Below are positions 20,096 through 42,841 of a stretch of 64,000 bases of DNA, piece after piece. Source of the stretch: Minutocellus sp. GHC0000111 (lineage: Eukaryota); assembly GCA_977018835.1 (NCBI GenBank), contig OZ361260.1:3596001-3660000 (forward strand), written 5' to 3'. How positions within the stretch are numbered: position 1 is the first letter of the stretch; each line of letters begins with the position of its first letter. Under the pieces are notes generated by a model that was not told where the DNA came from, ran no database searches, and was given only the letters and a program-made list of their open reading frames with translations. A program made the position numbers and the translations under genes.

Positions 20096-21791
20096 ATCTT
20101 GGTGCTCTTTTAGCACATGATATAGATACGGTATTAGAGTGTTTCTTTTGGTACACTATTGTTTGAAAATTTATTTTTATGTCGTAGAATACACTTGTGC
20201 TGTTTCAAGAAAGAAAAAATACATCAAACTTTATAACGAAACAAAACCCATTTCGTTCAACGAATGGGGCCACAACATGTGTCGCCGACGTGCCTCCCAT
20301 TGAGAACAATCAAGACTACGGGGCACCATACCCTTGTAATAGCCTTTCACAACACTGTGGTGCAGCAGGAGACTTGCAATTACTTTTTTGAGCCTTGAAA
20401 AATTCGTTCGCGTTAGACCCGATTTTTTCGACAGTTTCCGACGTTCCATCACGACCATGTTCGCCCGATGTACAGCACCACCCCGGCCATCGCATACACT
20501 CTGACCACCTAGATGCCTTCCTGAATATTACTCGAAGGGATTTTTGGGCGATAGTGGTGCGTCGGTGCGTGCCTGTACCGCGAAATTTGGCCCAGCGCCA
20601 TTACCACCCCCATTACACCACCCATCCGAAAGTTGGTCCGGATGCTTTTATGCGGTCCATGCACCACTTCCGTTGCACTGAGCCGTCGACGCTTCACCCA
20701 TATATATACCAAGCGCATTTGAGTGGGGGGTGGTGGCATTTCTCGACAATTCATAGAGAAAACTATTCCCAAAGTCCCGTGTCTGATGTCGGCACCAGAT
20801 TTCACCTTCATTGCTTCTGCCGCCCGAGAGGAACGAAACCGGAGAAAGCGGCCAAACCATCACGTGAGATCGATGGATGTAATATAGAATGAGCATCGTG
20901 CGTGCTGATATTGCGTGAAGGAACAGTGGTTGAGGCTTGAAGGGGGTTGTAGTTGGGGATTTGCTACTTTCAGATGTTTTTGCTTTCCATGGTGACGGCC
21001 ACAATGATACAAAGATGGGGCCCAATATCGACCCTCTGGCGCAAACTTGCTCCCAATATTACCCAAGTGAAAGTAATGCCGGTCAGGGAGGATTGAAATG
21101 GATGTAGACAAGCATCAGCCATCATTCTTTGCCATTTTGAGGGTAAAAAAATATTGAAAATTTCTGGGCATGAGGAGATGTTGCTAAAATAGCACATGAT
21201 GTACGAATGAGTTTGCTTTCAAGTATGCAATACTCACCTAACGCATGTAGTTGGCGTATACATCGGTTGGCTTGGAGTTATTTATCGTTATACCATCATT
21301 TGGTGGCCTTCTTGTGGAGATGAATTCTCCTTGCTTTCGCCGTGTTGAGAGAGGCCATTTAGTGGGTTCATTTTTGCGCTGCATAAAGTATCGCACAAAA
21401 AAATTTCCTAGTGCGTTTTGTCGGCGGTCTCGTGGAATCACTCTACATGTAGATCTACGACGTAAAAAAGAGATGCCGAGCTGGCCATCTTTATTAGAGT
21501 GCAAAATTTTAGAGCTACATTTAGGAATCCTACCTTGCGTACATGTACTATCATTGACCCCCATTCATGGAGGTCGTCCATCGATCCGCGACGCATGAAT
21601 GGGGGGTGGGTCATCATCTTCTTCGCTCGCGCCTCGATCGCTCAACATAAAAAAGAACCCGGAGCGGAGGCGTCCATCTCTTCGATAAAATAAAAATGCG
21701 CGGAGGCCGCTCAACCGCTCATTTTCGTGCCATGGCGCTCCGCGCTGCTTGAAGGGCTCCAGCAACCCGAGCGAAGGCAATACAAGCAATA

Positions 21792-24700
21792 ATGCTCCGC
21801 GTGACGCCTCTGTACGGATCGTACGGCCACCATCCGGCGTCGGCCTCCCTGTCCATCCCCCCCTCGTCGACGTTGGTGGAGTACGGCGGAGTCCGCGTCT
21901 TGGTCAACGTCGGGTGGGACGAGAGCTACCCCCTCCTCGACGGTCCAGCGGCGGCCGCCAGCGCCAGCACCAGCACCAGCGCCAGCCAACAAATTCCACC
22001 CGCGTCGCTGCCGGACGTGGATGCCATCGTCATTACGGACTCGACTTTGGCCAGTCTCGGCGGGCTGCCCATCTACCTCGGTCGGAGGGGACGGGCGCGT
22101 CGCGCAGCCGCCGCCGCCGCCGAAGGCGAGGATGGCAAGGCAGCTACCGACGGCAAGCCAGATCTGCCCCCGATACCGCCCATCTACGGGACGTATCCCA
22201 CCCTCAAGATGGGCCAGATGACGCTGTACGACTACCACGCCACGCAGTGCCTCGACGGGAGGGATCCGGGATTCGATCTGGCCGACGTCGACGAGCTCTT
22301 CGCGGAGGGCCGGCACTTTCGTCCGCTCAAGTACTCGCAGACGTTGAATCTGCCCCTGCCACCGGTGTCTGCCGAGGTCGGACCGAAGCGTGGCGGTGCT
22401 GCAGCAGCTGGAGTGGCAGTCCCCCAACGGCCACCGTTGCTGGGCATTACCCCTCATCGGGCTGGACATGTCACTGGTGGTGCCTTTTTTGTCCTCCGAA
22501 GGCTGTCGGACGAGACCGAGGTCGTGGTGGCACCTGGACACGCCTACCATCATGCCAAGGAACGGCATTTGGACGGTGCGACGCTGCACAAGTTTGGCGC
22601 CGCGGCCGACGTGCTGGTCACCAGCCCCGGTGGGAGCGGGGGGCTTCTGGGCAGCCTGTACCGACCCCCGCCGTCGGGTGGGGGCAAGGCCATCCTTGCC
22701 AACTCCACCGTGACGCGCCGGGAGACGGAGCTGGTGGAGCTCGTCATGGCCGCCCTCCGTCGTGGCGGCAACGTCCTCCTTCCCGTCGACGCCAGCGGCC
22801 GCGTCCTCGAGCTCCTCCTCGTACTGGGCAGGCACTGGGAGCGGCAGAGGTTGGGAAGCGCCTACAACCTCGTCTGGGTTGGCAGCATGACGTGGAATAC
22901 CATCGAGTTTGCCCGTTCGCAGCTGGAGTGGATGGCAGCTCCGCTTGGTGCTCAGTTCGATTCGCAGAGAGGGTACGTCGACTTCGCAGTGACGGGGCAT
23001 TCTTTTGCTTTGGTCTTGATGTGCGTGTGTGTGTATTGGCGATTATGTGAATGTGCTCTTCTCACCCATCATTTACCCCTGTGTTCCACCATACAGACAT
23101 CCTTATGCTCTCAAGGCATTCAATATATGCTCAAGCCTATCCGAGCTGGATGCCATCGTTGAGGCGTCTAATGGTAACCCTACGGTAGCTCTTGCGTCGG
23201 GAGCATCACTCGATTCGGGTCCCGCCCGTGATCTACTGTTGCGATGGTCGGAGAATCAAGATAACGCTGTTATTCTGACCGACAGCAGTCGATGCGTTCC
23301 CCGCGGTGACGTCGGTGCTGCCAAAGTTCTGGGATTGCCTAGCTTTGGTCAAAAAGTTGGGACCGCTGGTCAAATCGGGGCGGGAACTGTGGCTGGGGAA
23401 ACAGTCGAGGCCGAAGAGGAGGGAGGAGAGGGAGCCACCGCCCTCGTCGGATCGGCCATTCTCGCTGCCGATGTATCTGATCAATCGACAGCAGCGCAGC
23501 TTCTTACCAAGTGGTGCGAAGCAAAGGCCTCGCGAGAGGAGATGGCGGATGTCGTGGACGTTGATGTACCTGTACCTCACAGGTCTCCCCTTGCCGGTGT
23601 GGAGCTCCAAGCCTTCCTTGCGGAAGAAGAGAAAGCGAGAAAACGAAAGCAGGCAGAAAAGGAGCGCAAGGCAATGCTCGCAGAGGTTGAGAAAGCCAAG
23701 GAGAGCCTTCACCTCGGAGATGAAGATGCTGGCGGGGCTGCGACTGTTGCAGTTTCGACTGACAGGATCTCTGGTGCAACATCAAGGATTGCCGGGACAA
23801 AGACCAAGAGTGGAGCAGTCACCGCTAAAAGACCCAGGAAGAAGAGCAGTTTCGATCAGAACCTCTTTCTCAAAGTTCTCCAAACCATTGCACATGACCT
23901 TCGCAGTCAGAGATGAGACTGTTGGTATTGGGCAGGCAGACATAGTGAAAACGTCCTTTGGTATTGCCGAAAGTGCCAGATCAAATGTCGTCTAAGATGA
24001 TTATGGCATCGCCGTCGAACCAGAGAGATTTGTCGATATTGTAACAGGGGTTGACCCGTCGAAGGGAAGTGGACGCATTGCCGACCAAGCCAAGGGACTT
24101 GGATTTGGTGCTGATTGCCGGCCTCTCTTCTCATCTAGTGCGCTGGCTGGATCCGGCGAGGATGGTCCGGCTCCTGAAGAAGGTGACGCTGCTGACGACG
24201 AGCAGGCCCTAGAGGCTGCGGATCTTTCGGAAGGCAGAGGTATCATCCGCGGACGGAATGGTCGCCCTCCCATCAAGGTCACGGCTCTTCCACGTAAGAT
24301 TGAGGTATTGGCAGAGGTTGCCTATGTTTCACTAGAGGGCCGTGTGGATGCTCGAGCTGCGCGTCAGTCAATCCGTGCTCTCCAACCGCGACAGGTTGTT
24401 ATCCTTGGGGGAGGAAAGCCCAAGATCGCTGGCGCTCTAATCCAAGACAAATCCAGTGGAGCAGAAGTGAGCGAAGTGTCGCTTCTTTCTGAGGCTGTCA
24501 AGTCTCTTTCCGTAGACAAAGATAGCCACCCTGTCTTTGCTCCTTCTGACAACGAGACAATCGAACTGAATGTAGGACATGCCGCGTATTCTGTCCGTCT
24601 TATTGATACTCCCTACAGAAACCAAGAGGAGAGAGACGCTGCAGCAGCTGCCGGAGAAGACCTCGAAGAAGAGGCTCTACCTGAGCCCTTCGAGGCAAAG

Positions 24701-25054
24701 ATGGGCGAATGCACTGTCAGTTTGGTTGAAAATGTCGCAACCGGGCAAAGAGTCGCTGCTGATGGATCCATTGTTTTGGCCCCGAGTGCAGCTCTCGCTG
24801 ATGGGAGCAAACATCACCCTAGTGTTATGATTAGTGACGGTGATGTCCTTCTAACTGATTTGAGGGCGGAACTTATTTCGCAGGGAATGAAGGCTGACTA
24901 CAGTACCCGTGCAGGTTACGCCCAATTGATTGTCAATGAAAGGATTGTGGTGCGAAAGGACCAAGCTACTGGAAAGATCGATGTCGAAGGGCAGCTTTGT
25001 CAAGATTTTTTCTCAATCCGCTCTGTAGTCTGCGGGCAGTACGTGACGTTGTAA
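21792..25054 (+). CDS. CPSF2: Cleavage and polyadenylation specificity factor subunit 2 (CPSF100); intron 22973-23096; frameshift at 23872-23874 and in-frame TAA 23993-23995
   Basis: MBL/beta-CASP motifs (LGGLP, KMGQMTLYD, LKYSQ, AGHVTGG, HHAKERHL, RRGGNVLLPVDASGRVLELL, ARSQLEWM) and C-terminal EGQLCQDFFSIRSVVCGQY. Confidence 0.92.
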
Positions 25055-30105: not shown

Positions 30106-32860
30106 TTATTGATGATGATACTTCACATTCAAGCTGCCTCCATCAAACTTCTTGCCGTCCTTCCGCCACACATCGAAAATGATTCCATTCTTCTGATAGG
30201 CCAGGTACATGTGCTTTTTGTTTGGACTGAATGCCAATCCTGTCGTCTCCTCCTTGTAGATTGGACTTTCCAAAATGGTGAAGTATCGGCCCTGGGCATC
30301 TCGTCCGTGTATTCCAGCCTCGGCTCCTCCATCTTCGGTCAGGTACATGATACCATCGTCCCCTCCAAGTCGAACCAGCTGGTCCGGACTGACATCGATG
30401 CCCTCTTCTCGGACGATCTTGCGCTCGTAGGTGAAATTATCGAGATCCAAGATGAACAAGTCTTCATCCTTCTTGGAAACAAAGTATAGAATACCGTTGG
30501 CAACGTCGATACCCTCAGCGTTGGGATAATACTGCTGTGCTGACTTTCCAGCCTTGCTTTTATTGTCTATCCATTGGTACGTTCCATTTCGGCCTTCCTC
30601 ATCGGCAGGGATGAGGAAGAGATAGTCCAGAGTACCCTTCTCATCGTGCAGCATACGCGACGGGTTATCCCAATCGACAGTAGCTGGAGTGAAGCGACGC
30701 ACGGCACCATCGGCCTGATCTTCCGTGACAAAGAAACGAGGAAGGTTTTCATCTCGTAAATCATGAGCAAAAGACTCAAAGCTTCCACCATCGGCTCCAC
30801 CAAGAACAGTTCGCGTTTCGCTCTTTTTCTGTATACCCTCAGAGAAAGGATCTACCTGAAAGCAATGCCCAACAGGAGGAGTTCTTCGTGATTCTTCACA
30901 AGTAATGAAGGTATTCCAGGGCGTGGTGCCGCCGCCACAGTTCCGATCCGTCTTTTCCAAAATCATATCGTATCCAATCACTTTGCCATAGCGGTTGAAA
31001 GTAATTCTTCCGACTCCTCCTGCAACACTTTGTCCATTCGACGATTCTTTCTCAATCTCAGAATTGGAAACATAAATCCACCCCCCCTGATTAGTTGGTG
31101 ACGAATCAGGAACTTTGAATGTAGCTCCAAAGTCTGGCCTCTCGTGAAAGACAGTGTCAGACCTACTACCGTCGTTTAAGGGGACCGGTCGTTTGGAGTT
31201 GGCAATAATTCGTATATCAAGACCATTGGAGAGACGAACTCCAAGCTTCATCTGTGTCAGATGGCCAGGAACATATACATTGGGGTCGGATATTTGATCG
31301 ATGGTTGTTGGTGCTATTGTAGGGCTCAGCGTCTCAACAACTAGAGTTGGAGGACGTTGCTTCTTTTTCGGCTTTTCTGTCGGAGATGCTGTTGGCATCA
31401 AGGTTGGCTCGGGAGTCTGCACAGCGGCAAAAATTTTCATGGACTGGACATAGCCCCACTGATCACCCTTCTGGCGACCTTCGAACGTAATGGATTGAAG
31501 AAAAACGTAGTTGTCGAAACGAAAATCGATATAGTCGCCAGTTCTCGCTGACGAGGCACACCACGACCATCCGCTGTCGCACCTGTGCTCGGAGGGTAAC
31601 GCGCCGTTGATAGCTGCGCACGTATAGTCTTTGTGGGAGGATGATGATGTCTGCGATGTTGGGACAACTGTTTGTCCGTAAATATCGGTGAAGCCAACTC
31701 GCAAGCTGGGCCAATTGACGTACGACTTGACCTGAACTCGGATGGCATCGGCAACGACGGGCTCGTCAAATGATCTGGTTATGGTTCCCGAACATCCCTG
31801 GGAGGTTGGGCCTCGCATATCCTTTATGAATTTAAATGTTCCGGCAATCCTGTCCGGTGCAGCTGTTGGTTGGCTCGTTTCGTCAACGTAGTTGACCTTC
31901 CCGGCGACCTTTGGTGCCACAAGGATTGTACCGGCCACGGCAGCGACCATGACCAATCCAACAATGACGCATTTGGTCCTATTGAACCGACTACAAAGTG
32001 AGGTCGACTCTCTGGCTTCGTTTTCATCGAATTCATCGGAGAAGTCAAACGAATTTTCCGTCGTTGGCGTAACGATTGGCTGTTTCTTGATTTTGCTGTG
32101 GTTCTCATCGTCACTACTACCGCTGCTGGTGGAAGACGTATCGACTGTACTGGCAAAAGATTTCATCGAACGCTTCATTGCCATAGAAAGCACGTTGGAC
32201 TGAGGATAGGATGGTCTCGGGGATTCATTGTTTTGTCTGTCACTTTCATTTTCGTCGAAGGTATCATTTTCATCGGAGGGAGGGAACATCGTCGCTGGAG
32301 ACGCGTCGGTGGTTGCAGGGGCAGCAGAAGCAGCATTCCACGCCAGATTCATTCCAGTTCGTGGGAAGGCTCTGTAAGAATAAGGATAGAGGCATACAAT
32401 GCAAGAAAAAGGTTGGGAGGATGAGTCATTACTGACGAACGGTGAAAGTGAAATATCGAAAATCGAAAAAAAACGACAATGCCGTTTGACAGCAGGAGAG
32501 AAGTGAGCACGCGAAAAGATACACATGATATGCGGCCATCATTAGATCTACTCACCGCTCGCTCGCCAAGTCGCTGCACATGCTTTCATCGGCTTCTTCC
32601 ACAATGGTGGAGAGGTTAGGACCGTCGCCAGAGCTTACGACGGGCACAGATTTTTTGTCGTTGGTGGTTTTTCTGTGGCCGCGGCCGGATCTCGTCGTTG
32701 CTGTCAACGACCCACCGGCATGTGCCGATTTGGCTGGCGCCATGGCGTCGGAGGAAGGAGGCGGTGCCGCTTGCTCTACTGATGATGTAGGCTGGTCGGC
32801 GAGATTGTCTCTCTCGGCGTCCCGCTGTTGGTTGTTGGCTCCCTTTGGCTGGAACCACAT
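30106..32860 (-). CDS. PhoX-like (DUF839) alkaline phosphatase, type II membrane-anchored, with a discoidin-like domain and a P/T stalk; intron 32555-32372
   Basis: FHERPDFGA, GGWIYVSNSE, NCGGGTTPWNTFITCEE, EGI, SPDQ, LTEDGG and ETTGLAFSP motifs; one TM. The GTGAGT..CAG intron splices in frame (SER|AFP). Confidence 0.85.
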
Positions 32861-36385: not shown

Positions 36386-37165
36386 CTACTGGAATGTGAG
36401 CTTCCAAAAGAAGGCAAGGAGGACACATTGGGCTACTCCTCGTCCAGCATGTCCCCAGGGATACGGTATGGCGGGCGCATTCTTCATCTGAGCATCGTGC
36501 GTGAACATATACATGTTTGCTGGAGTCACCGCCGCCACTAGCAGACAGAGGAGGAATGCCGGTATTTGGACAGGAATATCAAAGAGACCAACTCCGCTTC
36601 CAGCCAGTAACAAGCCACCCCCAATCTCGGCAACGCCGGTCCAGTATGAGTGGTATTCTTCATATGTTAGCCCAAGTTCTTCGGCTCCAGGCGCTGGCAC
36701 GTCCCAAAGCCCACCCCAGATACCTCGAGGTGGTACAATGCTCGTGAAGGATTCCTTTAGAGCAAAATGGCTGACGCCAGCGGCAACAAAGATGAGACCG
36801 AGCGGTAGAGGCCACGTATAATCCCTCCACAAATCAAACCACTCATATGGAAGCAAGTCCTCTACAAAACCGAGGAAGCCAACAATGACCGACGTCCCCA
36901 AGAGAATGCCTGCAGATATGGCCCCGACGGCCAACTTTTGCTGGGACGGCTCCATGGCCGAAACCAAGATGGATGGGTCCGGTCGAAGAATGTCGATGCC
37001 GGCCTGCTCTTCCGATTCCGCATGCAATCTCACAACATTTGGGCGTCGAAGACCCAATGCAAGAGAAGGAGCATTTGGTGCAATGCAAGTCGGTGGTGAG
37101 AACGCACTGGTGGAAGCCACCGCCGATGCGACCAGCAGGAGTGCAAACTTCGTTTTCATCGCCAT
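36386..37165 (-). CDS. Plastid-targeted DoxX-like membrane protein
   Basis: Signal peptide plus [20 protein letters not shown]...IVPP...TGVAEIGGG...VTPANMYM pattern. Confidence 0.75.
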
Positions 37166-37334: not shown

Positions 37335-38123
37335 ATGGCGAGAGGCAACTTCGTGCTGCTGCTTGCCACGGCGGCGGCGGTACTCGTGTCGCCAGCAAGT
37401 GCCTTCTTCGGCGGCGCCACGACGAATCCATCTGCCTCGGCATCTGCTCAAATTGGAACGACCCCACTCGAACGCTTGGCGGATGTGCAGCTTACCTCGG
37501 TCTCCTCTGGCCAACCAACCCTGCTGACGTCGCAGTGGCGAAACAAAGAGCTGCTGCCCTGGCAGAACGAACGATGTGTCATTGAATTTCTTCGACACTA
37601 TGGATGAGTGTTCTGCTGGGAGAGGGCCGTCGAGTTGAAGCGCGATGCTCTCCCAGCATTGGAGGATAATGGAGTCAAGCTGCTTCTCGTCGGGATTGGC
37701 TCTCTTGAATCTGGTCAGACCTTCGGCGAACGAACAGGATTCCCTCAGGACATGCTGCTTGTTGATGAAAGTGAAGAGACGGAGGCATACAAATCCATCG
37801 GCACTCGCAACTCACAAAGAGATCCTTCCACGAACAAGCAAATATTCGAGGGTGTCGAGTCGATGTGGAGCTCTGCAACAACAGACGCCATTGAGATCCG
37901 TGGACGAGACGACTTAAATGCCATCACGGGTAATCTCTTCAAGCCAGGAATTTACAAGCCAATGATGCCAAGTACAGTGGAAGCTACTCTTGTTCAGGGA
38001 GCAAGCTTTGTTTTCAAGGGAAAGGATGCTCTTTTGGAACATTACGATGAATCGTCTGGGGCGCACGTTTCTGTAGAAGAGCTCTTGGAGGCTGCTCTGT
38101 CGAAAAAAGCAGGAAACTTGTAG
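37335..38123 (+). CDS. Plastid-targeted peroxiredoxin-like selenoprotein (AhpC/TSA-2, PRXL2/SelU-like), with Sec at TGA 37605-37607
   Basis: ORFs 36885..37607 and 37608..38123 are contiguous in frame: EFLRHYG-U-VFC-WERA (UxxC). C-terminal QGASFVF..KDALLEHYD; signal peptide plus ASAFFG; SECIS downstream. Confidence 0.9.
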
Positions 38124-38150
38124 GCAAATTTGCCAGTAACAATTGCCAAG

Positions 38151-38247
38151 CAAGGATCTCCATGCGATTTGCGATGAATGACGGTTTGGTGGAATGTTTG
38201 ATAATATCTCGCCAAACTTGAATATTTCGTGAGCACTGGACCCTTTG
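38151..38247 (+). promoter_or_regulatory. SECIS element (form II) in the 3'UTR of the selenoprotein
   Basis: ATGAC (38178) / TGAA (38219) core, helix II GGTTTGGTG:CGCCAAACT, apical AA with TGTT:AATA mini-stem, lower helix TTTGCGA:TCGTGAG extended by CAAGG..TCCA.TGC:GCA.TGGA..CTTTG. Confidence 0.85.
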
Positions 38248-38366
38248 CGATGTATATTGTACGTGAAGAACATACATAGCAAGATGTATATGATAGCATA
38301 ATCTTATATATACACGATCGTATCTTTATACGTCGTAGCAAAATAATAATTATTCCGATGTACAAG

Positions 38367-40345
38367 CTATGCTACAACAATTTCTTCGCCTTCCAAATCA
38401 TCCTTCAACCCAACCAAATCGTCAGCATTGAGCAGTACACTCATCTCACGGAGTAGTTGCTCTTCATCCTTTTCCGGCACCAAGGCAGCCTTGGACATGT
38501 CGACTCGGTCCATCCTCCACAGCCCCAGGCATGCCGCAGGCTCCTCCACTTCAGACAAATACGGCTTCTCCACAATCATCGCACAGTCTATACGCACATT
38601 CTTTACTTGGCCGAGGACAATATTGCAAATCTTTCGAACGCCAGGATTACCGATCAAGTCGCAGTCTACCTCCAGAAGCGCGCTTTTTTTCTTGCCAGTG
38701 TTAGAATCTATCGATTCATCGTATTCGTGCCATGTAGCCCCGACTCTACCGCCAGCAATCGTTACTTCCTTCTGTGGCAGTCCCATTGCTTTGATTATAT
38801 ATGGGCCGTCTACAAGGCACGGCAATATTTTCCACCTCCTGTTTCGATATTGAACGGTCCCTCTAAGAAAGCGTTTGAAGGCCTTGGTGTCTTCTGTATC
38901 GTCCTCCTCTTCTACAATATCTTCAAATTTCTTGATCCAGCTAGGCATCTGAAAATAGACGACCAAGTTGGCTCCAGGGAGCATAAGATTGACGATGAAT
39001 GTAGGCACATCTCGAAGGCCATTCTGCTCCAAAATTGGTTGCCGACAAATTCGCTCCTGGAGTATGTCAGCTCGGAATACGTCCATACCTCGCAGCTTAA
39101 TGGCTCCACCTCGATATTTGCCTGCAGGATTGAGGCCCGGTCATTCCCCGTATTGACGTGACCCAATCTCTCGGTTTTCATTCGAGCAGCATAAACATCT
39201 TCGGTGACATCTTGTTCTCCAGGAATCGATGATTGTGCATCCGAATCGCTTTCTTGATATGAATAATCGGATGAACTGCACGGCTTGGTTCGAAAGTCGT
39301 CGTACTTGAGCAATCGTTGCATCAATGCCCCCGTGGGCTTATCATACACGTGCTCCTCCCAATACGCTTTGGTCCTTCGAGTGGCATCCCCCAGAGTTGT
39401 CCAAATATCACCAGGAATATCCGCCAGGCTTGACATTGGGGTCAGCGTTGGTCGAGACCGCGCTGGCTCAACACTACCTGGGGTTACCAGATACGAAGAA
39501 ACTCCCCGGAATAGCTGGAATACATAGTCACGCTTGCGCTCAATGTATGTAGGTGGTCTGCTTATCGCGGCGCCTTGTCGTTCTTCGTTGAACGAGACGC
39601 GGCTAATCGACTTGTTCAGAGGACACTTTTGTGGAGAGAGAGACCTGTTTGGTCCTTTCACTCCCTCTTCGCCAGCAACAGCCGTACCAAGAGATGCAAC
39701 TTCATCACGAATCACCGCTTTGTGCATCACCGGCCAAAGCAAATGCCCAGCTAGAACCCCAAGTATGGTCCATAAGACAGCCAAATGCAAAGGGACGACG
39801 CCGTCTGACCGAATCATGTCGGAACTTCGGATCGATGAGATAGTCCCGACAACGAAAATGATTGACAACCGACAAAGCTCTGGCGTAAATCGAAGGAATT
39901 TGAATTTATCGCCATCGTCAGGGGCCGTCGATTCCTCTTCATTGCTAATCACACCAACCATGATACTAGACTGTCTCTTTGGTACTTCGTCGTCACTTTT
40001 GGTAGTGCTCTTAATCGATGCTCCGACGAGCGGTGTTGTCTCGTCGTCCCCATTAGTAGCATTTGAAGATGAGCCGGGCAATGCGACAGCATAATGCCCC
40101 GCCCTAGGCGTATTGTTTGTCAAAACCTTCGGAGGGATAATGCTTCGTACATTGGGCGCAGCTTCATTGACGCTGCCCGCCTCTGTTGTGGTGAGGTGGA
40201 GGGCCTTTTTGCACTTGGCTGTTCCGTCGACATGTGCATTTTTGATCGTCGTTTTGGTTGCTCGGTATGCCTCCTCTGCGGCGTCGGCGACATCCTCAAG
40301 AGCCCCCTTGCCCTTTTGGTCTTTACTGGTACCCCTGGACGTCAT
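38367..40345 (-). CDS. EDR2 C-terminal (DUF1336)-like protein with two TM helices; frameshift ~39098
   Basis: LRGMDVF...PTFIVNLMLP...RNRRWKILPCLVDGPYIIK...LEVDCD pattern; the two overlapping ORFs need a one-base correction. Confidence 0.7.
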
Positions 40346-40710: not shown

Positions 40711-42841
40711 ATGTCGAGAAATGCGTCTCATTTGGTGCAGGGCGACGACGCTGCCGGCGGCCCCGCCACAACCAATATGCCGATGATGATGACGATGCCG
40801 ATACCGCCCTAACATTCGGCCTGACCGTTGGCCAAATCGTAGCCAAGGATGAAGAAGAAGATGCCGATGCCGTGATGAGTGTCAGCACCATGCTGACCAG
40901 TAGTGGGATCCAGACTGCTTGCCAATCAATTGTTGCATTGCCCACGTCAGGAGCGGCAGATGGTGCATGTGCTACAAATTTTGGCACCCGAGCAGACCCG
41001 ACTACCGGTAGCCCAAACCAAGTCACAGCAAAGCATGAACCTCCCGCCCGATCTATCAGAAAAGGTCGAAGGGGATTTGGAATCATGCTGGCCGATAACG
41101 CCGGTGGCAGTGCCACCGTTGTCGGTACGCATACGGCAGTTTCGAGCAATGAGACGAGCAGGCGCACTGACGAGGCGCAAAAACTACCCTTGGCGGCAGC
41201 ATCGTCTCAAGCCGATGATTCATTCACTGGCAATACCACCTTTGATTCTTCCTTCAGTGGAAGTGGCCATGGATCTCCCGCAAAGAAGACGCAGAGGACG
41301 CCTACGCCAGTGGCTGAACAGACCAAGGCGCCACTTGAAAATGATGACAAGGCAAAGTCAGGAGGAGGGCGTTACTCATCTCGATGCTTGCTGCTTACCG
41401 GTCTCGCCATTCTCTTGATTGTAGGCGGTGTCTTGGGTGCTGTGGCCGGTACTGTAGGGTTGAACAAAACATCTGCTTCCATGCCATCTAGCAGCACCGG
41501 AAATGATGGGCAAGATGAATCTGAATCTGCAATGGTCCCACCCCTTCTCCTCTTACAAAATCTGAGAAGCCCACGAGAGCTTCCAACAAGAAGAAAAATG
41601 GCAACCCTGCTCGCACTTCTCCGACTGTCAGCCCAACAACGGTCTCACCGACCACTATCGATCAAATATCCGACCCAAATGCATATGTTCCTGGTCATCT
41701 AACACAAATAAAGCTTGGCGTGCGTCTATCGCACGGCCTCGACATCAAAGTCATTGCCAACTCCAAGCGAACCGTCAAATACAGCAATGGTAGGTCCTCC
41801 GACCGGCTTTTTCACGAACGCCCAGACTTTGGAGCTACGTTCCAAGTGCCCAACACGGAGGGAGGCTGGGTGTATCTTTCCAATTCTGAGATGGAAAAGG
41901 TGACGAAAAATGGAAAAGTCGTTTCTTCAGGCGGCGTCGGTCGAATTACTTTCGATGCAGATGGAGAAGTAATTGGATACGATATGATTTTGAAAAAGAC
42001 GGATCGAAATTGTGGCGGCGGCAACACACCCTGGAATACTTTTGTGTCGTGTGAAGAATCGCAAAAGGCTCCACCTGTTGGACATTGCTTTCAGGTAGAT
42101 CCCTTCAAGAAGGCGGTGCAAGAAAAGAGTGAAACGCGGACTGTTCTCGGTGGAGCCGATGGTGGGAGCCTGGAATCATTCGCTTATGATGCAAGAAACA
42201 AGAAGTCACCTCGCTTCTTTGTCACGGAAGACCAGGCCGACGGTGCCTTGCGTCGCTTCACTCCAGCTACAGTCGATTGGGACAACCCGTCGCGTATGCT
42301 GCACGATGAGAAGGGAACCCTCCAATACCTCGTCCTCGTTCCTGCCGACGAGGAAGGCCGAAATGGTACATTCGAGTGGACGGGCAACGAAATCAGGGCA
42401 GGAAGGTCTGCACAGCAGTACTATCCCAACGCCGAGGGCATTGACGTTGCCAACGGTATTCTATACTTTGTTTCCAAGAAGGATGAAGACTTGTTCATCT
42501 TGGATCTCGATAATTTCACCTACGAGCGCAAGATCGTCCGAGAAGAGGGCATCGATGTCAGTCCGGACCAGCTGGTTCGACTTGGAGGGGACGATGGTAT
42601 CATGTACCTGACCGAAGATGGAGGAGCCGAGGCTGGAATACACGGACGAGATGCCCAGGGCCGATACTTCACCATTTTGGAAAGTCCAATCTACAAGGAG
42701 GAGACGACAGGATTGGCATTCAGTCCAAACAAAAAGCACATGTACCTGGCCTATCAGAAGAATGGAATCATTTTCGATGTGTGGCGGAAGGACGGCAAGA
42801 AGTTCGATGGAGGCAGCTTGAATGTTAAGTACCATCGTTAG
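40711..42841 (+). CDS. Second PhoX-like (DUF839) phosphatase, type II membrane-anchored; frameshift ~41531, 5' end uncertain
   Basis: Same motifs as the 30106 gene; TM LLLTGLAILLIVGGVLGAVAG. Frame restoration gives the shared TTIDQISDPNAYVPGHLTQ.KLGVRLS. Confidence 0.85.
42443..42804 (+). repeat. 362-bp identical inverted copy of 30146-30507 (3' ends of the PhoX paralogs)
   Basis: Base-by-base comparison by eye shows identity including third codon positions; flanks diverge. Confidence 0.88.

What the first reader, a model, noticed from the sequence alone, without database searches (positions are those of the whole stretch)
37335..38247. Hidden selenoprotein: UxxC peroxiredoxin-like enzyme with a 3'UTR SECIS
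Seen: two ORFs abut in frame at a single TGA, giving FLRHYG-TGA-VFC. About 55 nt after the true TAG lies a hairpin with all SECIS hallmarks: AUGA/GA core, 9-bp helix II, apical AA with mini-stem and a long lower helix. Known: AhpC/TSA-2 (PRXL2/SelU) proteins carry RxxG[C/U]xxC at this position, and eukaryotic Sec recoding needs a 3'UTR SECIS. Inference: a 262-aa Sec enzyme that standard gene callers would split or truncate. Unlike the other in-frame stops in the window, this one falls exactly on the redox residue.
Basis: partly seen in the sequence, partly recalled or inferred. Interest (0 to 1): 0.9.

Follow-up and report, generated by a model that had tools for sequence, protein, structure and literature searches.

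The report
Diatom plastid-type selenoprotein, SelU family
This diatom gene has an internal 'stop' codon exactly at its redox site and a conserved signal hairpin behind it, so it very likely makes a selenium-containing, probably chloroplast-bound enzyme of an already known family; near-identical strains often carry a frame-shifted copy.

Summary
Confirmed, and a known kind. Window 37335-38123 reads as 262 codons with one in-frame TGA (codon 91) in RHYG-U-VFC. It aligns with the first Cys of the CxxC of human PRXL2B. A SECIS-type hairpin starts 54 nt after the TAG. A syntenic orthologue (83% identical) keeps the TGA and all 10 helix pairs despite 6 changed pairs. Of 50 informative database relatives at 50% identity or more, 48 are cut exactly at this codon, 2 read W, none reads Cys. 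Sec forms of this family are published for green algae and Thalassiosira, and this scan noted the kind before in other diatom genomes. The N-terminus has a plastid-type presequence (ASA|FF). A 2-nt deletion at 37934 frameshifts the gene in 4 of 4 near-identical runs that bridge the site, while the window is intact. It lacks the peroxiredoxin motif. Sec insertion, location and substrate are inferred; the Sec machinery could not be checked.

The parts
37335..38123 (+). Intronless coding sequence, 262 codons plus TAG, SelU/PRXL2 (PF13911) family
   Evidence: colinear with L001 without gaps over 786 nt; changes against L001 fall 33/20/121 on codon positions 1/2/3
37335..37403 (+). Predicted signal peptide (residues 1-23) ending in A-S-A
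   Evidence: sequence; same length and V-N-A in L001; SignalP not run
37404..37463 (+). Predicted transit-peptide-like stretch starting with Phe at +1 (ASAFAP-type motif); Ser/Thr-rich, no acidic and no basic residue in the first 20
   Evidence: rule from PMC4329603; low pLDDT in residues 1-32
37605..37607 (+). In-frame TGA, inferred selenocysteine U91 of the U-V-F-C motif
   Evidence: unchanged in contigs of runs X1 and X18
37614..37616 (+). Cys94, inferred resolving cysteine
   Evidence: Cys in 46 of 47 hits that start at residue 92; aligns with Cys47 of PRXL2B
37800..37979 (+). Clade-specific insert region (about residues 156-215) with an RN[S/T] motif
   Evidence: motif in 113 of 144 hits at 50% identity or more and in 0 of 48 Cys-type hits, with slightly different patterns used for the two sets
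37934..37935 (+). Site of a 2-nt deletion allele, absent from the window itself; it shifts the frame from residue 202 and ends at a TGA at 38048-38050
   Evidence: runs X2 and X18, X4 and X19; protein P0041; stop position
38152..38248 (+). SECIS element, type II; core ATGA 38178-38181 and GA 38220-38221, apical AA 38193-38194, lower helix either side
   Evidence: orthologous hairpin in L001

Best explanation
This is a diatom nuclear gene of the SelU/PRXL2 (PF13911) family whose in-frame TGA is very likely read as selenocysteine under the control of the hairpin in its 3' UTR, giving a predicted thioredoxin-fold UxxC oxidoreductase that is probably imported into the plastid. [quoted passage not shown] Inferred from established eukaryotic Sec biology: SBP2 and eEFSec bind the SECIS, and tRNA-Sec decodes UGA 91 in the cytosol. 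Predicted: the signal peptide (1-23) and the Phe-led transit stretch take the protein through the ER into the plastid. Inferred by analogy with human PRXL2B: the Sec91 selenolate at the N-terminus of helix 92-111 attacks a peroxide or disulfide, most likely a lipid (endo)peroxide or a protein disulfide. Cys94 then resolves it to a selenenyl-sulfide, which a thioredoxin- or NADPH-linked system re-reduces. In this species the gene exists as an intact allele (window) and a frameshifted, probably null allele.
For: PF13911 scores 49.5 bits against a cut-off of 27. The TGA aligns with Cys44 of human prostamide/PGF synthase, and R87 with its Arg40 (roles of these residues from PMC12938796). The AlphaFold model (pLDDT 86, pTM 0.81) puts U91 at the start of helix 92-111, and its top three fold matches are PRXL2B chains, best E 1.4e-8. 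Orthologue L001 (83% identity, syntenic on both sides) has TGA at codon 91. Its hairpin keeps 10 of 10 pairs, 5 changed on one side and 1 on both; slid controls pair 20-60%. Of 248 distinct hits from two searches, 144 are at 50% identity or more: 40 start at residue 92, 8 end at residue 90, 2 read W, none reads Cys, and 94 are uninformative. Cys-type hits reach at most 48% identity. Coding changes are mostly silent on both sides of the TGA: 31 synonymous against 15 non-synonymous codons before it, 67 against 19 after it. An RNA-library contig spans 37339-37936 without a gap and with the TGA unchanged. A relative's RNA-library contig runs from the coding region through the hairpin to 38232. The host is a diatom by the named hits of the neighbouring CPSF2 gene. 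Diatoms have tRNA-Sec and 16 to 44 selenoprotein genes (PMC2375036, PMC7539508). A plastid-type [small]-x-[A/G/S]|[F/W/Y/L] site lies at a plausible place in 18 of 20 N-termini examined.
Against: No genome is held, so tRNA-Sec, SecS, eEFSec, SBP2 and other SECIS elements of this organism were not checked. Sec insertion itself is not shown. Only one orthologous DNA locus was obtained (1 of 109 pattern matches); for the other relatives the stop is inferred from where the predicted proteins begin or end. With two sequences the pair-shuffle control is uninformative (262 of 500). In the relative X8 the second apical A reads G, and two differences near the contig end were not shown. All RNA evidence is assembled contigs of low depth from libraries that may contain DNA. 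The transit stretch has no basic residue in its first 20 positions, whereas PMC4329603 says a net positive charge is needed; the cleavage-site pattern is permissive and many of the 20 N-termini are near-copies. The deletion allele is in all 4 near-identical runs that bridge the site, so the enzyme may be partly dispensable here. The substrate is pure analogy.
Confidence: 0.85

Rival explanations
1. The family is a real selenoprotein family, but in this species the gene is decaying: selection is relaxed and the frameshifted allele is the usual form.
For: The 2-nt deletion is in X2, X4, X18 and X19 (3 studies) and in P0041 from a 629-kb contig. It removes residues 202-262, including two core strands and the last helix. 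X18 has a contig that joins 37425-37497 to unlike upstream sequence. The neighbouring gene has a 4-nt frameshift in the window.
Against: An intact allele exists in the window and in P0115 from a 1.48-Mb contig. Assembled contigs drop one side of a heterozygous bubble. X1's contig ends exactly at 37936, the last base the two alleles share, as a fork would give. TGA and SECIS are unchanged in the deletion-bearing contig of X18, and changes against L001 are mostly silent.
Confidence: 0.2
2. It is a selenoprotein, but it works in the ER, the periplastid space or outside the cell rather than in the plastid stroma or thylakoid lumen.
For: The signal peptide is clear, but the transit stretch lacks net positive charge. 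Several relatives have Leu rather than Phe at +1. SignalP and ASAFind were not run.
Against: ASA|F matches the published motif. Land-plant and green-algal relatives among the hits have long N-terminal extensions. Arabidopsis At2g37240 was found in plastid proteomes (PMC10400147); that this locus is the plant orthologue is recalled. The head-to-head neighbour also has a plastid-type presequence.
Confidence: 0.2
3. The TGA is a true stop, and the locus is a pseudogene or two separate short proteins.
For: Gene callers produce the two halves as separate proteins throughout the databases. The window has another frameshifted gene next door.
Against: The break falls at the same codon across diatoms, pelagophytes and a dictyochophyte. 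It splits the fold inside the active site. Both halves are under purifying selection, and the SECIS is conserved.
Confidence: 0.02
4. TGA is read as Trp or Cys through a changed genetic code or generic read-through, or an intron removes it.
For: Two close hits are deposited with W at this position. There are 22 frame-keeping GT..AG pairs of 39-200 nt that span the TGA.
Against: All four Trp of this gene use TGG. The column is Cys, not Trp, in distant relatives, and the W records are most simply a gene caller's choice of code 4 (inferred). The X1 contig and L001 are colinear across the TGA with no gap. A changed code would not explain the conserved hairpin.
Confidence: 0.02
5. It is a true peroxiredoxin with Cys94 as the peroxidatic residue.
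For: Weak PF00578 match (16.9 bits, below the cut-off of 26); PrxQ/BCP structures at fold ranks 4-8.
Against: Residues 87-94 read RHYGUVFC, not the PxxxT/SxxC motif (motif recalled). No Arg lies at or just before strand 223-228. PRXL2B scores at least two orders of magnitude better than any peroxiredoxin.
Confidence: 0.05

Closest known systems
'Trx-fold protein' selenoproteins of Ostreococcus and Thalassiosira pseudonana, and Chlamydomonas 'SelU' (PMC2375036, supplementary file 2)
   Same: R-x-[F/Y]-G-U at the end of the same strand, followed by the same helix. By hand count, 29 of 57 residues around the site are identical to the O. lucimarinus row. All end in a QGGxFxF-like strand and a G-x-H-A/V-like tail. 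The T. pseudonana row also begins with an ASAFAP-type presequence.
   Different: The Ostreococcus rows lack the second Cys (U-F-F-A). The T. pseudonana row has a different spacing (GU-PLC). None shows the RN[S/T] insert motif in the blocks read. The window protein therefore looks like a separate paralogue; no tree including these rows was built.
Land-plant chloroplast thioredoxin-like protein (LLRHFGCxCCWE type; Arabidopsis and rice rows; names AAED1 / PRXL2C / At2g37240 recalled)
   Same: PF13911 family, near-identical motif surroundings, N-terminal extension. Proteins with this motif are among the hits at about 30-41% identity.
   Different: Cys instead of Sec; no signal peptide; they form their own well-supported clade (100/100) apart from the window's clade. 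Function reported as unknown (PMC8195503).
Human PRXL2B, prostamide/prostaglandin F synthase (PDB 9us9, 9usa)
   Same: Best sequence match in the PDB (E 3.4e-5) and best fold match; CxxC and Arg40 align with U91/C94 and R87.
   Different: Cys, about 22% identity, no presequence; Arg41 is His here; its substrate, PGH2, cannot be assumed for the diatom enzyme.
SELENOU1 proper (vertebrate SelU1/PRXL2A and T. pseudonana SelU1, SelU2)
   Same: [quoted passage not shown]
   Different: These have RRPG-U; the window has RHYG-U and a plastid-type presequence. In vertebrates all Sec forms are SELENOU1 (PMC13134290, PMC3316567), whereas this one resembles the plant/PRXL2C-like branch.

Membership tests
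SelU/PRXL2 family (Pfam PF13911) | Score above the curated cut-off | tested here: met
   49.5 bits against 27
SelU/PRXL2 family (Pfam PF13911) | R-x-x-G-[C/U]-x-x-C at the N-terminus of the active-site helix in a thioredoxin fold | tested here: met
   RHYGUVFC; model and fold search; the fold is predicted, not solved
Eukaryotic selenoprotein gene | In-frame TGA aligned with Cys or TGA in homologues, with conserved flanks on both sides | tested here: met
Eukaryotic selenoprotein gene | SECIS in the 3' UTR: RUGA/GA core, helix II, apical adenines, lower helix, conserved in orthologues | tested here: met
   own filter, not SECISearch3; Rfam listed no SECIS family among 6 matches up to E 10
Eukaryotic selenoprotein gene | Transcript keeps the TGA and includes the SECIS | tested here: inconclusive
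   TGA unspliced in an X1 contig; hairpin covered only by a relative's contig (X8); no single contig covers both in an RNA library
Eukaryotic selenoprotein gene | Sec machinery (tRNA-Sec, SecS, eEFSec, SBP2, SPS2) in the same genome | not testable with these tools
   no genome held; reported for diatoms in PMC2375036
Eukaryotic selenoprotein gene | Selenium in the protein | not testable with these tools
   needs 75Se labelling or MS
SELENOU1 subfamily in the strict sense | RRPG[U/C] motif | tested here: not met
   RHYG here; SelU1-type rows
Peroxiredoxin | PxxxT/SxxC motif and conserved distal Arg (recalled) | tested here: not met
   residues 87-94 are RHYGUVFC; PF00578 below cut-off
Diatom plastid-targeted protein | Signal peptide with F, W, Y or L at +1 (ASAFAP motif) | tested here: met
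   ASA|FF by inspection and a pattern scan; SignalP and ASAFind not run
Diatom plastid-targeted protein | Transit peptide rich in hydroxylated residues, few acidic residues, net positive charge | tested here: inconclusive
   7 Ser/Thr, 0 acidic, 0 basic in the first 20 residues
Bacterial SelL-related redox protein (NF040769) | Score above the curated cut-off | tested here: not met
   39 bits against 120; no close relative in the prokaryotic genome collection

The most novel reading that the evidence does not exclude
The gene belongs to an unnamed, apparently Sec-only subfamily of plastid-imported SelU proteins with its own insert, spread across diatoms, pelagophytes and dictyochophytes and split in two by every gene caller. 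It acts as a selenium-dependent reductase of plastid lipid peroxides or endoperoxides. A common natural frameshift allele in this diatom offers a ready-made knockout for finding what SelU-type proteins do.
Probability: 0.3. Interest if true: 0.55.

Novelty: new member of a known kind. Interest (0 to 1): 0.3.

Why it matters
It corrects a systematic annotation error: among the 100 best relatives in the protein collection, none is a full-length record with Cys at this site. It adds a probable plastid redox enzyme to the selenium demand of marine algae. The plant counterpart is described as of unknown function, and a natural frameshift allele in this species could make the function testable. The recoding mechanism and the family are both already known, so the surprise is small.

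Tried and rejected
The whole genome was not available. Rfam listed no SECIS family among 6 weak matches, which says little for divergent elements. The bare SECIS pattern is at chance level. The metagenome scan gave one locus. The prokaryotic genome scan gave none among 99 pattern matches, a search for close relatives only. A scan of viral contigs with the alignment could not be run because no stretch was conserved enough, so viral copies are untested. Run X5 laid nothing on 37880-38280, which proves nothing. RNA contigs of near-identical strains (X1, X2, X4) stop before the 3' UTR, which at depths of 4-10 is no evidence about the transcript end. The pair-shuffle control is uninformative with two rows. 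I considered a programmed +1 frameshift rescuing the deletion allele and rejected it, because the allele is absent from orthologues and an intact allele exists. Sec read-through of that allele's TGA at codon 238 would meet further TGA at codons 295 and 310 and would not restore the fold. No complex prediction was run, as no binding is claimed. The search of earlier findings by sequence returned nothing. Peptide motifs of this clade were absent from the one supplement of PMC6627142. The supplement of PMC7539508, which may list orthologues, could not be read.

Full report
VERDICT. The gene is very likely a real selenoprotein, of a family already known to carry selenocysteine in algae.

1. THE SEQUENCE. 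From ATG 37335 the frame runs to TAG 38121-38123 with one internal stop, TGA at 37605-37607, codon 91. Read through, it is 262 aa with FLRHYG-U-VFCW. The host is a diatom: the window holds eukaryotic genes (CPSF2, HMG box, MYND), and the named hits of CPSF2 are diatoms. No whole genome is held.

2. THE HAIRPIN. ATGA at 38178 starts 54 nt after the TAG and 570 nt after the TGA. It is followed by a 9-10 pair helix, AA at 38193-38194, a mini-stem, GA at 38220-38221 and a lower helix. The region folds at z = -3.56. The bare pattern is at chance level (53 matches against 50.7). Adding helix II at 8 or more of 9 pairs leaves 2 sites in the window against a shuffled mean of 0.27. A stricter filter, set with this hairpin in mind, leaves this site alone and none in 150 shuffles. 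Rfam listed no SECIS family.

3. AN ORTHOLOGUE. The metagenome scan gave one locus, L001 (1 of 109 pattern matches; 83% identity), syntenic on both sides. It has TGA at codon 91 and a hairpin at the same place (z = -3.49), the only site in that locus to pass the loose filter. All 10 helix pairs hold in both sequences: 4 unchanged, 5 changed on one side, 1 on both. Slid controls pair 20-60%; the shuffle control is uninformative with two rows. Differences in the coding region fall 33/20/121 on codon positions 1/2/3, and are mostly silent both before the TGA (31 against 15 codons) and after it (67 against 19).

4. RELATIVES BREAK AT THE SAME CODON. Of the 100 best hits, 35 start at residue 92, 62 start later, 1 ends at residue 90, 2 read W, and none reads Cys. 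Pooling these with the 150 listed representatives of 311 gives 248 distinct rows. At 50% identity or more (144 rows), 40 start at 92, 8 end at 90, 2 read W, 0 read Cys, and 94 are uninformative. Cys-type hits reach at most 48%. For these proteins the stop codon is inferred, not seen. Named cluster members are Pelagomonas calceolata and Octactis speculum. A tree of 69 rows (23 hand-picked close hits, plus representatives that passed length and alignment filters; C-terminal part only) places the window protein in a clade of 24 rows with support 98/86 and no Cys member. The plant-type LLRH[F]GC proteins form their own clade. An RN[S/T] motif in the insert at about residues 156-215 marks the clade: 113 of 144 close hits against 0 of 48 Cys-type hits.

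5. READS. I laid 7 of 21 listed runs; all are assembled contigs. X1 (RNA library) spans 37339-37936 with no gap and the TGA unchanged, which argues against an intron or a base error. X18 spans 37468-38486 with TGA and SECIS unchanged. X8 (RNA library, a relative about 91% alike) runs from 37737 through the hairpin to 38232 with the ATGA core unchanged, though its second apical A reads G and two differences near its end were not listed. No RNA contig covers both TGA and SECIS, and RNA libraries may hold DNA.

6. A FRAMESHIFT ALLELE. Two bases at 37934 are missing in X2, X4, X18 and X19, that is in 4 of 4 near-identical runs that bridge the site, from three studies. X1 ends at 37936, the last base the alleles share; X5 laid nothing. 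Protein P0041, from a 629-kb contig, is the product of this allele, diverging at residue 202. P0115, from a 1.48-Mb contig, is intact with one substitution. The deletion removes residues 202-262, including two core strands and the last helix, and ends at a TGA at 38048. The window's form matches all orthologues, so it is ancestral (inferred). Contigs drop one side of a bubble, so zygosity is unknown.

7. HOW IT LIKELY WORKS. The protein matches PF13911 above its cut-off. U91 and C94 align with Cys44 and Cys47 of human PRXL2B, and R87 with Arg40. The model (pLDDT 86) has U91 at the start of helix 92-111, and PRXL2B is the best fold match. In PRXL2B the free cysteines reduce the endoperoxide of PGH2, and the two arginines make the site positive (PMC12938796, passages). 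By analogy, Sec91 is the attacking residue and Cys94 the resolving one (Cys in 46 of 47 hits starting at 92). The substrate is most likely a lipid peroxide or a protein disulfide; this is inference only. It is not a peroxiredoxin by motif (motif recalled). Residues 1-23 are a hydrophobic leader ending ASA, followed by Phe, which is the published diatom plastid motif (PMC4329603, passages). A similar site lies at a plausible place in 18 of 20 N-termini scanned with a permissive pattern; of the other two, one has its site beyond the scanned stretch and one does not fit the pattern. Against this, the 20 residues after the site hold no basic residue. My odds are about 0.95 for Sec recoding, 0.75 for the plastid, and 0.8 for Sec-first oxidoreductase chemistry.

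8. WHAT IS KNOWN. PMC2375036 (passages; supplement search; supplementary file 2 parts 3-4 of 8) reports 16 selenoproteins in T. pseudonana, including two SelU and a thioredoxin-like protein. It aligns Sec-containing 'Trx-fold proteins' of Ostreococcus and Thalassiosira with Cys proteins of Arabidopsis and rice. These and Chlamydomonas SelU are the closest published relatives (29 of 57 residues around the site identical to the O. lucimarinus row, hand count). PMC7539508 (passages) finds Sec-containing SELENOU in more than half of 36 algal genomes and 20-44 selenoprotein genes in diatoms; its supplement could not be read and may already list orthologues. PMC13134290 and PMC3316567 (passages) give the SELENOU1/2/3 = PRXL2A/C/B scheme. 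Chloroplast-targeted selenoproteins are already reported: two Chlamydomonas GPx (PMC3095285, passages). At2g37240 appears in plastid proteomes and is called of unknown function (PMC10400147 and PMC8195503, one passage each); that it is the plant orthologue is recalled. PMC6627142 (passages and supplement search) added nothing. Searches (listings only, apart from the papers named) showed no paper on this particular clade or on plastid location of a diatom SelU. The library is incomplete, so this is weak. Three earlier notes of this scan describe the same kind of gene in other diatom genomes; they are unchecked, and I had formed this reading before seeing them.

9. SCORE. New member of a known kind; interest 0.3. 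The boldest open reading, a Sec-only plastid subfamily reducing lipid peroxides with a natural null allele in this species, has a probability of about 0.3 and would deserve about 0.55.

Noticed in passing
window 37934-37935: A 2-nt deletion allele that frameshifts the selenoprotein gene is in 4 of 4 near-identical runs bridging the site and in one long-contig protein record; the window and another long-contig record are intact.
   Followed up: partly
window 38367-40345, - strand; break near 39097-39101: The downstream neighbour (EDR2_C domain) lacks 4 nt relative to its orthologue in L001, which shifts its frame; either a broken allele or an assembly error.
   Followed up: partly
window 36386-37165, - strand: A head-to-head neighbour starts about 170 nt from the selenoprotein's ATG. 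It has a plastid-type presequence (STSA|FSPP), several hydrophobic stretches and no Pfam match above cut-off, and is 81% identical and syntenic in L001. A shared promoter is possible.
   Followed up: partly
window 37425-37497: In run X18 one contig matches this stretch and continues upstream into 29 unlike letters, suggesting a rearranged haplotype or an insertion in the 5' part of the gene.
   Followed up: no
distant protein hits, e.g. P0242, P0245, P0250, P0268, P0294: A group of distant paralogues has Asp in place of the first Cys/Sec (13 of 150 representatives); four of the five in the tree form a clade with support 100/97. Most also lack the second Cys, so they are probably redox-inactive or use other chemistry.
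   Followed up: no
distant protein hits P0191, P0200, P0212, P0227, P0244: Five proteins at about 34-40% identity also start exactly at residue 92; four fall outside the window's clade and one at its base, suggesting further hidden Sec paralogues in this family.
   Followed up: no
window 21753-25054: CPSF2 is split into three ORFs; the first break (about 23030-23098) coincides with a gap against four of five homologues and looks like an ordinary intron.
   Followed up: partly
window 30106-32526 (-) and 41525-42841 (+): Two ORFs match the PhoX alkaline phosphatase family above cut-off.
   Followed up: no
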